Positions 3,331 through 7,736 of a DNA stretch of 64,000 nucleotides are shown piece after piece. Under the pieces are notes generated by a model. That model worked only from the letters and a program-made list of their open reading frames with translations, ran no database searches and was not told where the DNA came from. This DNA is from Salarias fasciatus (taxonomy: Eukaryota): contig NC_043762.1 in assembly GCF_902148845.1 (NCBI RefSeq), positions 29,026,760-29,090,759 on the forward strand. The letters are read 5' to 3'. The first letter of the stretch is position 1, and every line of letters begins with the position of its first letter. Made by a program: the position numbers and the translations under genes.

Positions 3331-4241
3331 CTCTAATTTTCGAAGTACCATCATATATTATACAGTTACTGTTGTGTTTATTACTGAGATAGAGTGTAAT
3401 TTTGACAGGAGATTATTATAAATTTTATAAACAGGTTTATGTTTTCACTGTTAATTTTACAGCAAACTACTGTAAACAAATAACAGTTATGTACTGCAAA
3501 ATTAATAGTTTTTTTATGTTAATTCAGCTGTGATTTCATTTCCTGTAAATCAATTTACATATTGTGTCTGTAAACTTATCTACTGTGCTGCTGTATATTT
3601 TACAGGAATTCTCTGGTAACCACAGCTGCCAGCGTTTTCCTGTAAAAACAAAATGTTTTTTTTTTACAGTGAGGAAAAAAATCATAAAGCAATAACCTTT
3701 ACTCATGTGACTAGAGCGCCGATGATGAGGGAAGGCAATAAATGGGTAAAATAAATGTAACATGCATGCAGGAAGTGTACTTCTGGCAGCATGTAGCACA
3801 GGCCAAGATTTTTCCAGTGCAAAGCTCATGAACAAAATCATGGTTTTATTCTTGTTTTTTCTAAAATTCAATACAGTGACACAGAATTCAAGAATACTCT
3901 AGCTTTTCAAGGCAAAATGTTTCTCAAAAGAAATACACTGAGCAAGTGACAAATCTCCTTTACTCTCTTGTCTTTATCTCTGGTAATAAAGTAAACCATA
4001 TTACCTAGAAGTAATCTCACACATTACTTTAATTTTGTGGTATTTTGAGTAAGTTAGTGATTGTATTTCTCAACAAGTAACTTTGTCAAGCAGCCACTCA
4101 GCCTTGCTGTTTTTTTCTACTGTTTGAACAAGCATTGTGCCCTTTAATAAGGGTGTGCTGCAGAGGAGAACAAAGCCTGCAAATAACCAAGAGCTGACAG
4201 CAGATCATGAAAAGAAGCATTGGGAAAGTCAGAGGATCGTG

Positions 4242-6258
4242 AATCCGTGTATCATTCGTTCATTTGATATTCAATTAAGAATCAAAAAACAAAATATTGA
4301 AAAATGAGTCGTTTTTCCTTTTTTCGTTTTTAAAATGAAAACAAATAAATGAAAATTGGTTTGTTTTTCAATATCCCGTTTGTTAAGACAGATCAAATAA
4401 AGGAAAGATGAAATGCGGCCACAGAGCAGACTTTAATGTGATTTTTCAATTTCTTCGATCTCCGTGACCCGGAAGTTCTATCGTCTGTGTTTTGGTTTTT
4501 GCCGGCGGGAAACGTGGGCGGGTCACGTCAACCTGTAGTCCAGCACACACTACATAAGGATCAGGCCGAATTTTGCCCCGATTTTCTCCTCCCTACCGAA
4601 GACAAGGTCCGGGAGTATGCTAATGAGTTCGGGTCCGATCTTCGTGTAGTGTTCCGGGGGTTCAGAGAGATGTTTTCCAGTCGGAGCCTCTCAGGAGGCG
4701 TCGGAAGGGGAGATCGTAGATAATGAACATGTTTAATATTTCTGATCGCAAATCCTGTGGAGTGTGGAGCTCTGAGAGGCGCTGATCAGCTCCGAGTAGA
4801 GCTGTCCACACCCTCGAAATAAAGCTTCCTGATTGGCTGGTGCTGCTGCTTAAAAAAATCCCCTCTCAGCTGTCAGAGATGGAGACATATGTGAAATATA
4901 TTCACTATATGACAGTGAAAGAGAAAAGTCAGAACTCCTAAACTCAGCAGTGAAGAAAGTGATGGTTAATCCTCAATAACTGGATCGCTCCAGGATAAAC
5001 TGGATTTCCTCCATTCAGACCCAAACTCTGATCTGCATTGCAAGTCCTACATTAACCATCACGGAAGAATGAGGAAAAAAATAAATGAAAAAAAAAAAAA
5101 AACAACTTTAATATCCTGACTCCGTGCCTTCAGAGAGAAGAGCGACGCATGATGAAATTTACCTAATCAAAGCTCAACGAGGTTTTATTCTGGTGTAAAC
5201 TATCCAATCTGGGGACAAAAAGAATGATTTAAGATATTTGGTGATCTAAAAAAGTAGCTTTGTCAGAGTCTGCTACTGCTCTTAAGCGATTAGGTAAATT
5301 TCATTATGCGTCGCTCGTCTCTCTGAAGGCAGGGAAAGTTGTTGTTTTTTTTTTTTTTCCATGATGGTTAATAGTGGACATGAATTCAAACATCGGGATT
5401 ATTGCAGGACTGGCGATGCAGATGAATGAGCAGATCAGAGTTTGGGTCTGAATGGAGGAAATCCAGTTAATCCTGGAGCGATCCAGTTATTGAGGATTAA
5501 CCATCACTTTCTTCACTGCTGAGTTTAGGAGTTCTGACTTTTCTCTTTCACTGTCATATAGTGAATATATTTCACATATGTCTCCATCTCTGACAGCTGT
5601 GAGGGGACTTTTTTTTAAGCAGCAGCACCAGCCAATCAGGAAGCTTTATTTCGAGGGAGTGGACAGGTCTGCTCGGAGCTGATCAGCGCCTCTCAGAGCT
5701 CCATGCACCACAGGATTTGCATCAGAAATATTAAACATGTTCATTATTTACGATCTCCCCTTCCGACGCCTCCCGAGAGGCTCCGACTGGAAAACATCTC
5801 TCTGAACCCCCGGAACACTACACGAAGATCAGACCCGAGATCATTATCATACTCCCGACAGTCGGACCTTGTCGGCTTCGGTCGGGAGGAGAAGATCGGG
5901 GCAAAATTCGGCCTGATCCTTCTGTAGTAGTGTATAGTAGTGTGTGCTGGCCTTAAACTGACCCACAGGGTTCCGTGACCCGCCCACCTTCCCGCCGACA
6001 AAAACCAAAACACAGACGATAGAACTTCCGGGTCACGGAGATCGAAGAAATTGAAAAATCACATTAAAGTCTGCTCTGTGGCCGCATTTCAACTTTCCTT
6101 TATTTGATCTGTCTTAACAAACGGGATATTGAAAAACAAACCAATTTTCATTTATTTGTTTTCATTTTAAAAACGAAAAAAGGAAAAACGACTCATTTTT
6201 CAATATTTTGTTTTTTGATTCTTAATTGAATATCAATTGAACGAATGATACACGGATT
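4242..6258. mobile_element. Foldback (long inverted-repeat) non-autonomous element, about 2.0 kb, arms about 0.95 kb, A/T-rich central loop, 6-bp TSD atcgtg
   Basis: The left arm from 4242 (aatccgtgtatcattcgttc...) is the reverse complement of the right arm ending at 6258. ORFs 4487-4723(+) and 5744-6013(-) are mirror images of each other. The central loop runs from about 5170 to 5286. The flanking atcgtg repeats at 4236-4241 and 6259-6264. The site is empty in repeat copy B (agagtatcatgcacc). Confidence 0.8.
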
Positions 6259-7736
6259 ATCGTGCACTGAAATAAACATCAAGACACAAGACAGTGATGG
6301 AGAAACACTAAAAAAAACAAAATGCTCCCAGGTGTACATTTTTGGTGTATTATTAAGGCCCAAGAGGGACAGATAACAATAATAAGTTTACTCATGTGAC
6401 TAAAAAATATTAATAACTATGTAGTGTACAGTAGAAGAGTGAAACCTGTCACCAGAGAAGTTATTGAAAAGTATAACTTTGTAGTATTTGTCTTCATTGT
6501 TGCAGCGTCTTGTAATTTGCAGACGGTCCCTTAACACCGCAGCACAGCCGGCTGCTCATAGAAATCAATGTTTCTGCTGCGTGAAAGACAAATACTTTTA
6601 ATCAAAATGTTACAGCATACAGGCCATCTCACAGCGACGGGACGGAGGCGCCCTTTGTGTGTTACTGACGTTTTGTTAAAGAGTTATTGAGAACGTCAGT
6701 CTGAATCTGTGAGTATCATGCCAACTTTACCAGACTGTAATAGACAGGTAAAAGTAAAAGTAGCGTCCATGAATGAAGTGTACTTCCGGCAACATCTACC
6801 GCAGACCAAGCTTCATTCGGTGCCTGTGTTTAGGATTGTAATGACTCCAGAGTTTTTCATTCAGGCGTGGTTGGATAAGTCACGAGCTGCGCGCTGAAAA
6901 CTCACCGGAAACCCCCCAAGTTCTCCTCCTCAGCGGAGAGGAGACTCTTCATTCAGAAAGTTTTTACCGTATCTCTGTGTGAAACAGCGACGAAAATATC
7001 CCACCTCGCTCACTTCCTGTAAACGACTCACCGGAGCAGCTTCGCGCGCTGATTGGTCAGTCTGGACTGTGTACTTTTTTACCGTAATAACGGAGACGAG
7101 CGCCTCTGATAACGAATCAAACGTATAATCACACATTACTGTACTTTTCCAGCGCAGCCACAGAGTGACTTTCACTAAAAACAAAACCGACCTGCAAGAA
7201 CCTACAATCCAGAAAGCCAAACCACCAAGCTAATTAGGAAAATTAAAGTGATAAACGACCACAAAAGCCAAGAAATATATAAACACCACAAATAACTGAA
7301 CAGGGATGAATTGTGCCTGTTGAGAGAGCAGGGGGCTTTTATTGACATTTTAAAAATAACAAATATGAGCTTGATAAAAGTTAAAGTCTTCATAAAATAG
7401 TGATCATCATATGTTTCATGTTATGCAACTCAGGTTAGTTTAGATTTCACTGTCCATGCAAACTCTGCTCATTAAAATATGGAATAATTCCGGTTAATCA
7501 AAAATAAACAACAACAAAGTAGTGCTTTAGTGACTTTATTGAACGATTTGAAAAATAAAACATATTTGATAATTATATTTGTTCCACTTCATTGTGTCAC
7601 AATAGATACATTCTCAAAACCATCAATTAACTCAACTCATAAAACTTTAGGCTTGATTCATACACTGGCAAGTACCTCATGATTCTGAATGTAAACATAA
7701 AGCAGAATAAATCCCTGCAGATACCTTCACAACATT

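What the first reader, a model, noticed from the sequence alone, without database searches (positions are those of the whole stretch)
4236..6264. A 2-kb near-perfect palindrome is inserted in repeat copy A with a 6-bp TSD, and the site is empty in copy B
Copy A reads ...gtcagaggATCGTG[aatccgtgtatcattcgttc ... gaacgaatgatacacggatt]ATCGTGcactgaaataaac. Copy B reads gtcagagtatcatgcaccgaaataaac with no insert. That is a classic filled-versus-empty site comparison and shows this foldback structure transposed as a unit. The arms are about 950 bp and mirror each other through the whole element, including the mirrored ORFs on the track. A 6-bp TSD is unusual among common superfamilies, which give hAT 8, Tc1 2 and PIF 3.
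Basis: seen in the sequence. Interest (0 to 1): 0.55.

Follow-up and report, generated by a model that had tools for sequence, protein, structure and literature searches.

The report
Foldback copy of integrase-type fish transposon
The 2-kb palindrome is a real, non-coding "foldback" copy of a fish DNA transposon family whose integrase-like enzyme normally makes 6-bp target duplications, so it is a clean but fairly ordinary mobile-element insertion.

Summary
A 2,017-bp palindrome (4242-6258) sits between two exact ATCGTG copies. The paralogous copy B (62949-62975) carries one ATCATG and is collinear on both sides.

The 20-bp terminus AATCCGTGTATCATTCGTTC is the conserved end of a multi-copy teleost transposon family.
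- It abuts nine different flanks in one metagenome.
- It bounds full-length elements in Umbra pygmaea, Perca flavescens and Synchiropus splendidus (the match there is 17-20 of 20).
- Those three elements have 195-258-bp TIRs and exact 6-bp TSDs (TACACT, GTTTTA, CATCTA).

The full-length elements encode a ~300-aa HTH plus integrase-core DDE protein (Pfam PF24764, with weak IS481/IS3 similarity) and a second, convergent gene. This matches the published IS3EU/GingerRoot superfamily (6-bp TSD, found in fish and cnidarians), except that the termini are AA..TT rather than TA..TA.

The window element has no coding remnant. Its outer 270 bp are the family TIR, including a CCGGAAGT motif. The remaining ~660 bp of each arm is extra mirrored sequence.

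It is therefore a non-autonomous foldback derivative, presumably moved in trans. The 6-bp TSD is expected for this superfamily, not anomalous. Novelty: new member of a known kind. Interest is low to moderate.

The parts
4236..4241 (.). Left target-site duplication, ATCGTG
   Evidence: Read directly. It is identical to 6259-6264, and copy B has a single ATCATG at this site.
4242..6258 (.). Whole non-autonomous foldback element (2,017 bp)
   Evidence: Inverted-repeat arms. Single-hairpin fold. No ORF over 104 codons and no similarity to the family's proteins.
4242..4261 (+). Terminal 20-mer AATCCGTGTATCATTCGTTC (left end), the presumed transposase recognition end
   Evidence: An exact copy lies at 6239-6258 on the minus strand. 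The same 20-mer borders nine different flanks in a metagenome. It also ends complete elements in Synchiropus (20/20, and 24/24 over the longer match), Umbra (19/20) and Perca (17/20).
4242..4511 (+). Left family-type TIR (270 bp, AT-rich subterminal region)
   Evidence: 99% complementary to 5989-6258. Aligns with the TIRs of partner elements (alignment A2).
4469..4476 (+). CCGGAAGT (ETS-site-like) motif pointing inward, 228 bp from the left end
   Evidence: The same motif sits 223-236 bp from the end in both Umbra TIRs, both Synchiropus TIRs, L008 and L014, and in L010. In coding copies it lies 32-55 bp upstream of the first ATG. A promoter role is inferred, not shown.
4512..5168 (+). Inner part of the left arm: extra mirrored non-coding sequence of unknown origin
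   Evidence: Pairs with 5988-5288. Not similar to partner elements beyond the TIR. No coding remnant.
5169..5287 (.). Central asymmetric loop (119 nt)
   Evidence: Lies between the innermost inverted repeat 5121-5168 / 5288-5335.
5288..5988 (-). Inner part of the right arm
6024..6031 (-). Mirror copy of the CCGGAAGT motif, pointing inward
5989..6258 (-). Right family-type TIR (270 bp)
6259..6264 (.). Right target-site duplication, ATCGTG
62949..62975 (+). Paralogous empty site in copy B, with a single ATCATG at 62957-62962
   Evidence: Unique match. Collinear alignment on both sides.
2258..7300 (+). Repeat copy A, which hosts the insertion. Its paralogue, copy B, spans 62198-64000 and runs off the window.
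   Evidence: Self-BLAST blocks at 74-93% identity and global alignment.

Best explanation
The palindrome is a non-autonomous foldback derivative of a teleost cut-and-paste DNA transposon family. That family's transposase is an IS3/IS481-like, integrase-type DDE enzyme, i.e. IS3EU/GingerRoot-like.

Structure (shown):
- Each arm starts with the family's ~250-270-bp TIR: a conserved 20-bp terminus, an AT-rich subterminal region and an inward CCGGAAGT motif.
- Each arm continues with ~660 bp of further mirrored non-coding sequence.
- The element therefore consists of two copies of one element end joined head to head around a 119-nt loop.
- It encodes nothing.
- It integrated after the copy A / copy B duplication.

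Mechanism (inferred):
- It was mobilised in trans by a transposase from an autonomous relative. That enzyme would bind the two equivalent ends and integrate them across a 6-bp staggered cut, whose repair gave ATCGTG/ATCGTG.
- The palindrome probably arose from an ordinary element in one of two ways: strand switching during gap repair, or use of the same end from two sister copies. The family's left and right TIRs are interchangeable, which makes either route workable.
For: (1) Exact 6-bp TSD and a collinear empty paralogous site.

(2) The terminal 20-mer is a true element end. In metagenome MDSQ01 it abuts nine unrelated flanks, and similarity stops exactly at AATCCG.

(3) Complete elements with this end and exact 6-bp TSDs:
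- Umbra, L016 10671-16093: TIR 250 bp, TSD TACACT.
- Perca, L019 9708-18041: TIR 195 bp, TSD GTTTTA.
- Synchiropus, L021 9556-16226: TIR 258 bp at 98.8%, TSD CATCTA, first 24 bp identical to the window element.

(4) Those elements encode proteins of 267-307 aa with these features:
- Pfam PF24764 (integrase core) at E down to 2e-17, plus weak HTH_21 hits.
- IS481 at E = 6.8e-9 and IS3 at E = 6.7e-5 in NCBIfam.
- Invariant D135 and D193. The third catalytic residue, E232 in the VER(I/M)W motif, is conserved in 8 of the 12 sequences; the other four are partial gene models or diverge there. Spacing is 58 and 39 residues. No HHCC motif.
- Homologues occur in many teleosts and in sea anemones.

(5) Published IS3EU/GingerRoot features agree: 6-bp TSD, TIRs, an integrase-related DDE without HHCC, and presence in fish, corals and anemones (PMC6839031; PMC10045372).

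(7) The arms carry no coding remnant.
Against: - No second copy of this foldback, and no autonomous copy from the same genome, could be examined. The window holds neither, so trans-mobilisation and family status are inferred.
- The termini are 5'-AA..TT-3' (GG..CC in cyprinid-type copies). The TA..TA reported for all complete Repbase IS3EU families and most GingerRoot elements is not met.
- No reference IS3EU or GingerRoot protein was available for direct comparison.
- The window TIR lacks the AC(G/A)GATAAC subterminal motifs found at about 108 and 167 bp in the coding copies. Its competence for transposition today is therefore uncertain.
- One diverged copy (Rhinichthys, L017) shows a 5-bp rather than a 6-bp direct repeat.
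Confidence: 0.85

Rival explanations
1. Internally deleted Maverick/Polinton: two long TIRs of a giant virus-like element left behind, inserted by its retroviral-type integrase, which also gives 6-bp TSDs.
For: The 6-bp TSD and an arm length (~930 bp) inside the reported vertebrate Maverick TIR range of 46-1,447 bp (PMC8097293).
Against: - Vertebrate Maverick ends carry (AGT)2, (AG)3 or (AC)3A motifs. This element starts AATCCG.
- The same terminus bounds 5.4-8.3-kb elements that have two small genes and no polymerase or capsid genes.
- The terminal 20-mer was not found in the viral contig collection.
Confidence: 0.02
2. The element inserted as an ordinary short non-autonomous copy (270-bp TIRs, non-palindromic interior) and the interior became palindromic afterwards in place. 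Alternatively, the palindrome was created during this single insertion event. In either case it is a one-off, not a propagating foldback family.
For: - No other copy of the 660-bp inner arm sequence was found in the window, in protein-derived searches or in the metagenome contigs, which stop within 237 bp of the end.
- Rearranged relatives exist: L008 has gene 2 inverted relative to exon 1, which shows that the family undergoes inversions.
Against: - An in-place conversion of an interior into a mirror image would need a complex rearrangement that kept both ends and the TSD intact.
- The arms differ by about 1-4% plus indels, so the palindrome is not brand new.
- A neighbouring element in Umbra also has inverted arms of at least 1.1 kb, which suggests such derivatives recur.
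Confidence: 0.1
3. Assembly artefact: a foldback chimeric read or a mis-joined inverted duplicate created the palindrome.
For: Long perfect palindromes are a known artefact class (own knowledge).
Against: - The arms differ by 38 substitutions and about 20 indels, not by sequencing-error noise.
- The flanks are not mirrored and continue collinearly with copy B.
- Both junctions are canonical family termini with an exact TSD.
Confidence: 0.02
4. Member of another superfamily (hAT, P/Galileo-like or Drosophila-type Foldback, or Dada) with an atypical TSD.
For: Foldback architecture resembles FB/Galileo. Dada gives 6-7-bp TSDs (PMC3706591).
Against: - Dada elements lack TIRs and insert only into small-RNA genes. 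Here there are 270-bp TIRs and more than 12 unrelated targets, and no Rfam gene at the site.
- FB and Galileo have internally repetitive TIRs and 9- or 7-bp TSDs (own knowledge). TRF finds no tandem subrepeats in the arms.
- The partner elements encode an integrase-type enzyme, not a hAT or P transposase.
Confidence: 0.01

Closest known systems
[quoted passage not shown] 2019, PMC6839031; Kojima 2023, PMC10045372)
   Same: - 6-bp TSD.
- TIRs of 100-260 bp in coding copies.
- A small integrase-type DDE transposase without an HHCC zinc finger, with an N-terminal HTH and similarity to bacterial IS3/IS481 transposases.
- Occurrence in fish and cnidarians.
- Existence of non-coding derivatives.
   Different: - Termini are AA..TT (or GG..CC), not TA..TA or TG..CA.
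- Coding copies carry a second conserved convergent gene of unknown function.
- This copy is a ~0.93-kb-arm palindrome. Neither paper mentions palindromic derivatives: the words 'foldback' and 'palindrom' are absent from PMC6839031.
Maverick / Polinton
   Same: 6-bp TSD made by a retroviral-type integrase. Long TIRs, up to 1.4 kb.
   Different: The end motifs (AGT)2, (AG)3 and (AC)3A are absent. There are no polymerase or capsid genes in elements with this terminus, and those elements are 5-8 kb rather than 13-25 kb.
Drosophila Foldback (FB) and Galileo (P superfamily) long-TIR elements
   Same: Element dominated by long inverted arms around a short middle. Non-coding copies are moved in trans.
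   Different: Those have arms built of tandem subrepeats and 9-bp or 7-bp TSDs (own knowledge). Here the arms are unique sequence, the TSD is 6 bp, and the enzyme class is different.

Membership tests
IS3EU/GingerRoot | 6-bp target-site duplication | tested here: met
   Window ATCGTG. Umbra TACACT and Perca GTTTTA. Synchiropus CATCTA. One diverged GG-terminus copy (L017) shows 5 bp, ACCAG.
IS3EU/GingerRoot | Terminal inverted repeats (100-150 bp in GingerRoot) | tested here: met
   195-258 bp in coding copies. 270-bp family TIR within ~927-bp arms in the window.
IS3EU/GingerRoot | Termini 5'-TA...TA-3' (occasionally TG...CA) | tested here: not met
   All ends read AATCCG...CGGATT. The base outside the end varies among 13 junctions. 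GG..CC occurs in L014 and L017.
IS3EU/GingerRoot | Autonomous members encode an integrase-related DDE transposase similar to IS3/IS481, without an HHCC zinc finger | tested here: met
   Tested on partner elements, not on the window copy. PF24764 at E to 2e-17 and HTH_21. IS481 at E = 6.8e-9 and IS3 at E = 6.7e-5. D135 and D193 invariant, E232 conserved in 8 of 12 sequences, and no conserved HHCC.
IS3EU/GingerRoot | Transposase groups with reference IS3EU/GingerRoot proteins in a phylogeny | not testable with these tools
   No Repbase or GingerRoot reference sequences are held, and the paper's supplement is not available.
Maverick/Polinton | 6-bp TSD and long TIRs | tested here: met
   Ranges from PMC8097293.
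Maverick/Polinton | Terminal (AGT)2 / (AG)3 / (AC)3A repeat motifs | tested here: not met
   The terminus is AATCCGTG. Motifs from PMC8097293.
Maverick/Polinton | Relatives with the same ends carry pPolB, capsid, protease and ATPase genes | tested here: not met
   Elements with these ends are 5.4-8.3 kb and have two genes only.
Dada | No TIRs; insertion into snRNA or tRNA genes | tested here: not met
   270-bp TIRs. No Rfam gene in the window. Targets are diverse. Features from PMC3706591.
Drosophila-type Foldback / Galileo | Arms made of tandem subrepeats; 9-bp (FB) or 7-bp (Galileo) TSD | tested here: not met
   TRF finds only trivial short runs in the arms. The TSD is 6 bp. Family features are from own knowledge.
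hAT | 8-bp TSD; hAT transposase in autonomous relatives | tested here: not met
   The TSD is 6 bp in 4 of 4 AA-terminus elements. The partner protein is integrase-type.

The most novel reading that the evidence does not exclude
The AATCCGTGTA-terminus elements could be an undescribed teleost/cnidarian clade of integrase-type transposons, distinct from curated IS3EU/GingerRoot in three ways: AA..TT ends, two convergent genes, and each gene driven from a promoter built into the TIR. Their foldback derivatives, such as this one, would then carry two inward-facing TIR promoters across a 2-kb palindrome. That arrangement could act as a natural hairpin- or double-stranded-RNA source that feeds small-RNA silencing of the family.
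Probability: 0.12. Interest if true: 0.5.

Novelty: new member of a known kind. Interest (0 to 1): 0.3.

Why it matters
It gives a textbook filled-versus-empty demonstration that a long palindrome can be integrated as a unit by an integrase-type DNA transposon. It links a non-coding foldback to its likely coding partners in other fish. It also documents features of a poorly described vertebrate branch of IS3EU/GingerRoot: the conserved 20-bp end, the subterminal motifs, the CCGGAAGT motif in both TIRs, and a second gene. Practically, it gives annotators a terminus and a TSD rule for recognising this family in fish genomes. It also flags a 2-kb hairpin-forming locus that may be fragile or a source of small RNAs. 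It does not open a new kind of biology.

Tried and rejected
- Exact look-ups of the two longest element ORFs in the gene-position index found nothing.
- A concatenated six-frame translation of the whole element, searched against 5.8 billion proteins, gave no hit. The arms are not a known coding sequence, and this route recovered no other copies.
- The terminal 20-mer was absent from viral contigs and from bacterial/archaeal genomes.
- Rfam found nothing in the window.
- A second AATCCGTGTA at window 33990 (minus strand) is a chance 10-mer with no subterminal similarity.
- Sensitive tblastn of transposase and gene-2 exons against the element gave only noise.
- I tested whether CpG decay explains why the inner arms are more diverged than the TIRs. 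It does not: only 2 of 20 inner mismatches are CpG transitions, and differences cluster with indels at arm positions 268-400.
- A PDB sequence search with the transposase profile found nothing.
- The AlphaFold model of the transposase had pLDDT below 50 over the catalytic core (mean 55). I ran no fold search and draw no structural claim from it.
- A literature search for the terminal sequences returned only unrelated primers.
- L018 (Tachysurus) and L020 (Pseudoliparis) gave no recognisable right end.
- P0023 and P0071 were not on record.
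Full report

Yes.

The window is vertebrate-like DNA: 44% G+C, LINE-type reverse-transcriptase ORFs and no bacterial features.

Reading 4100-6400 shows ...GTCAGAGG ATCGTG | AATCCGTGTATCATTCGTTC ... GAACGAATGATACACGGATT | ATCGTG CACTGAAATAAAC. The hexamer lies at 4236-4241 and 6259-6264. The inverted repeat begins exactly at 4242 and 6258. The next bases outward (G and A) are not complementary, and no shifted or longer direct repeat fits.

The repeat finder and a self-BLAST give arms 4242-5168 and 6258-5288. 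A global alignment of the arms shows:
- 3 mismatches in the outer 270 bp;
- 20 mismatches and 9 small indels over arm positions 271-795, clustered at positions 268-400;
- a poorly aligned stretch of roughly 85-95 bp per arm;
- a 48-bp inner inverted repeat;
- a 119-nt loop at 5169-5287.

As a single strand the element folds into one hairpin. MFE is -1580 kcal/mol against -532 +/- 14 for shuffles, and 870 of 910 pairs span the centre.

No reading frame exceeds 104 codons, so the mirrored ORFs are a by-product of the palindrome.

**2. The empty site**

GTCAGAGTATCATGCACCGAAATAAAC occurs once in the window, at 62949-62975.

I removed the element and one hexamer from copy A and aligned the result globally with 62300-64000. 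The alignment runs collinearly through the site. Copy A (about 2258-7300) and copy B (62198 to the window end) are 74-93% identical in blocks.

Copy B holds a single ATCATG where copy A has ATCGTG, the element, then ATCGTG. The insertion therefore post-dates the duplication and made a 6-bp TSD.

**3. Is the terminus a transposon end?**

The window holds no other copy.

A scan of public metagenome contigs for the terminal 20-mer found nine contigs from one project, MDSQ01. In all nine the sequence outside AATCCG is different, and similarity begins exactly at the A. Inside, the first 100-200 bp are about 72% identical to the window element. This is the signature of a multi-copy mobile element with a defined end.

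One contig (L008) continues for 3.9 kb. It carries, 265 bp inside the end, an ATG-initiated exon ending at a GT splice donor.

**4. The coding partner**

That exon's peptide (MAAGLEDHYY...CSEMSVRRFC...) has homologues in ENA and Logan contigs (alignment A1).

One of them, L014, starts with GGTCCGTGTATGATTCGTTCATTTGAATTTCAATTAGGAAC, which is close to the window terminus. It contains three exons. The spliced product gives weak Pfam hits to HTH_21 and to the start of PF24764, 'integrase core domain'.

Searching with that product found 253 proteins. Most are teleost 'uncharacterized protein LOC...' or 'Integrase core domain-containing protein' entries of 230-312 aa carrying PF24764. Sea-anemone proteins also appear.

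Properties of the full proteins:
- PF24764 above its curated threshold, E down to 2e-17.
- Consistent sub-threshold similarity to bacterial IS481 (E = 6.8e-9) and IS3 (E = 6.7e-5) transposases.
- In the 12-protein alignment D135 and D193 are invariant. The third catalytic residue, E232 in the VER(I/M)W motif, is conserved in 8 of the 12; the other four are partial gene models or diverge there. Spacing is 58 and 39 residues, close to the integrase DD35E pattern.
- No conserved HHCC zinc finger upstream.

**5. Complete elements and their TSDs**

I fetched the genomic loci of these proteins with 10-kb flanks.

| Species (locus) | Coordinates | Length | TIR | Flanks, giving the TSD |
|---|---|---|---|---|
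| Umbra pygmaea (L016) | 10671-16093 | 5,423 bp | 250 bp, 90% | ...ggtcTACACT / TACACTgacc |
| Perca flavescens (L019) | 9708-18041 | 8,334 bp | 195 bp, 96% | ...ggagGTTTTA / GTTTTAaagg |
| Synchiropus splendidus (L021) | 9556-16226 | 6,671 bp | 258 bp, 98.8% | ...gttcCATCTA / CATCTActtc |

All three begin AATCCGTGTA and end TACACGGATT. The first 24 bp of the Synchiropus element are identical to the window element. With the window copy, that makes four of four AA-terminus elements with an exact 6-bp TSD.

A more diverged cyprinid copy (Rhinichthys, L017 9649-17156) has GGTCCGTGTA ends and a 5-bp direct repeat, ACCAG. Two other loci had no recognisable right end.

Each complete element also carries a second gene on the opposite strand, converging on the transposase gene. 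Its exons are conserved between species at 42-70% identity and have no Pfam match.

**6. What the window element is made of**

The window arms align with partner TIRs (A2). The alignment shows the conserved terminal 20 bp, an AT-rich subterminal region, and a CCGGAAGT-type motif 223-236 bp from the end. The motif occurs in both window arms, both Umbra TIRs, both Synchiropus TIRs, L008 and L014, and in L010.

In coding copies the first ATG lies 32-55 bp downstream of that motif. CCGGAAGT is the canonical ETS-factor site of TATA-less promoters (own knowledge). I therefore infer, but have not shown, that each TIR holds an inward promoter.

The window's outer 270 bp, the part that is 99% identical between arms, thus correspond to the family TIR. 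The next ~660 bp of each arm have no counterpart in partner elements and no coding remnant.

The window TIR lacks the AC(G/A)GATAAC motifs that sit at about 108 and 167 bp in the coding copies. In this respect it resembles the short MDSQ01 copies.

**7. Mechanism**

Shown:
- a defined family end at both junctions;
- a 6-bp TSD;
- an empty paralogue;
- no coding capacity;
- coding relatives with an integrase-type DDE protein and the same TSD length.

Inferred:
- The element was moved in trans by such a transposase, which integrated it across a 6-bp staggered cut.
- Because the family's two TIRs are near-identical, a molecule made of two copies of one end is a competent substrate.
- The palindrome most likely arose by strand switching during repair synthesis, or by pairing of the same end from sister copies.

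The arms differ by about 1-4% plus indels, so the palindrome is not brand new. The excess of differences just inside the TIR is not explained by CpG decay, since only 2 of 20 are CpG transitions.

**8. Comparison with known families**

Published IS3EU/GingerRoot features are a 6-bp TSD, TIRs, an integrase-related DDE without HHCC that is close to IS3/IS481, and presence in fish, corals and sea anemones (PMC6839031; PMC10045372). All of these are met.

The reported TA..TA termini are not met: the ends here are AA..TT. A direct phylogenetic test against reference proteins could not be run. I therefore file the family as IS3EU/GingerRoot-like. It works like that superfamily, and membership is probable but carries one failed diagnostic.

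Other candidates:
- Maverick/Polinton shares the TSD and long TIRs. It fails on end motifs and gene content.
- Dada fails because it has no TIRs and is specific for small-RNA genes.
- Drosophila FB and Galileo share only the foldback shape.

**9. Verdict**

The 'unusual' 6-bp TSD is what this superfamily makes.

It is a new member of a known kind. The minor novelties are a foldback architecture not mentioned for this superfamily in the papers read, and non-canonical termini.

Interest is low to moderate. The main open point is whether the foldback is a propagating family and whether it yields hairpin RNA. Both need the source genome and expression data.

Noticed in passing
window 6979-7102 and 63841-63964: A 124-bp block is 100% identical between copy A and copy B, although the surrounding paralogous sequence is only about 75-93% identical. 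It contains CACTTCCTGT (a reverse ETS-like site) and CTGATTGGTCAG (a reverse CCAAT box). This suggests a conserved promoter or a recent gene-conversion patch.
   Followed up: partly
L016 14198-15780(-), L019 13725-17103(-), L021 13148-15266(-), L017 12614-14713(-); L008 2193-4395(+): The coding transposons carry a second gene that converges on the transposase gene. It is conserved between species and has no Pfam match. Its last exon has a Cys-rich motif, CCxSLIGCxxCIExW...CxKCR, that looks like a RING or U-box.
   Followed up: partly
L008 620-4540: In this metagenome contig, transposase exon 1 is followed by gene 2 in the same orientation, and the other transposase exons are missing. In complete elements the two genes converge. 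The contig is either a rearranged or inverted derivative or a chimeric assembly.
   Followed up: no
L016 16411-23180: A second element lies about 320 bp beyond the Umbra copy. It starts GGTCCGTGTATGGAGTGGGTCCGTGTACC and has inverted arms of at least 1.1 kb (16695-17818 vs 23161-22067, 85-91% identical). Its right end lies beyond the fetched locus. Long-inverted-repeat derivatives may recur in this superfamily.
   Followed up: partly
TIRs of L016, L019, L021 and L008, positions ~108 and ~167 from the end: AC(G/A)GATAAC motifs occur at the same two distances from the terminus in all coding copies but not in the window element. They are possible subterminal transposase-binding sites.
   Followed up: partly
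window 18240-18568 and 19948-20276: A 329-bp inverted repeat at 98.8% identity brackets the 365-aa reverse-transcriptase-like ORF at 18866-19963(-).
   Followed up: no
window 20788-21336 and 21790-22325; 14172-14456: A direct repeat of about 550 bp, spaced about 1 kb apart, at 88% identity. Separately, a short tandem array with a period of about 52-104 bp lies inside a proline-rich ORF.
   Followed up: no
window 2317-2386, 4150-4219 and 62257-62326: A 70-bp sub-repeat (90-91% identity) occurs twice in copy A, once immediately upstream of the insertion site, and once in copy B.
   Followed up: no
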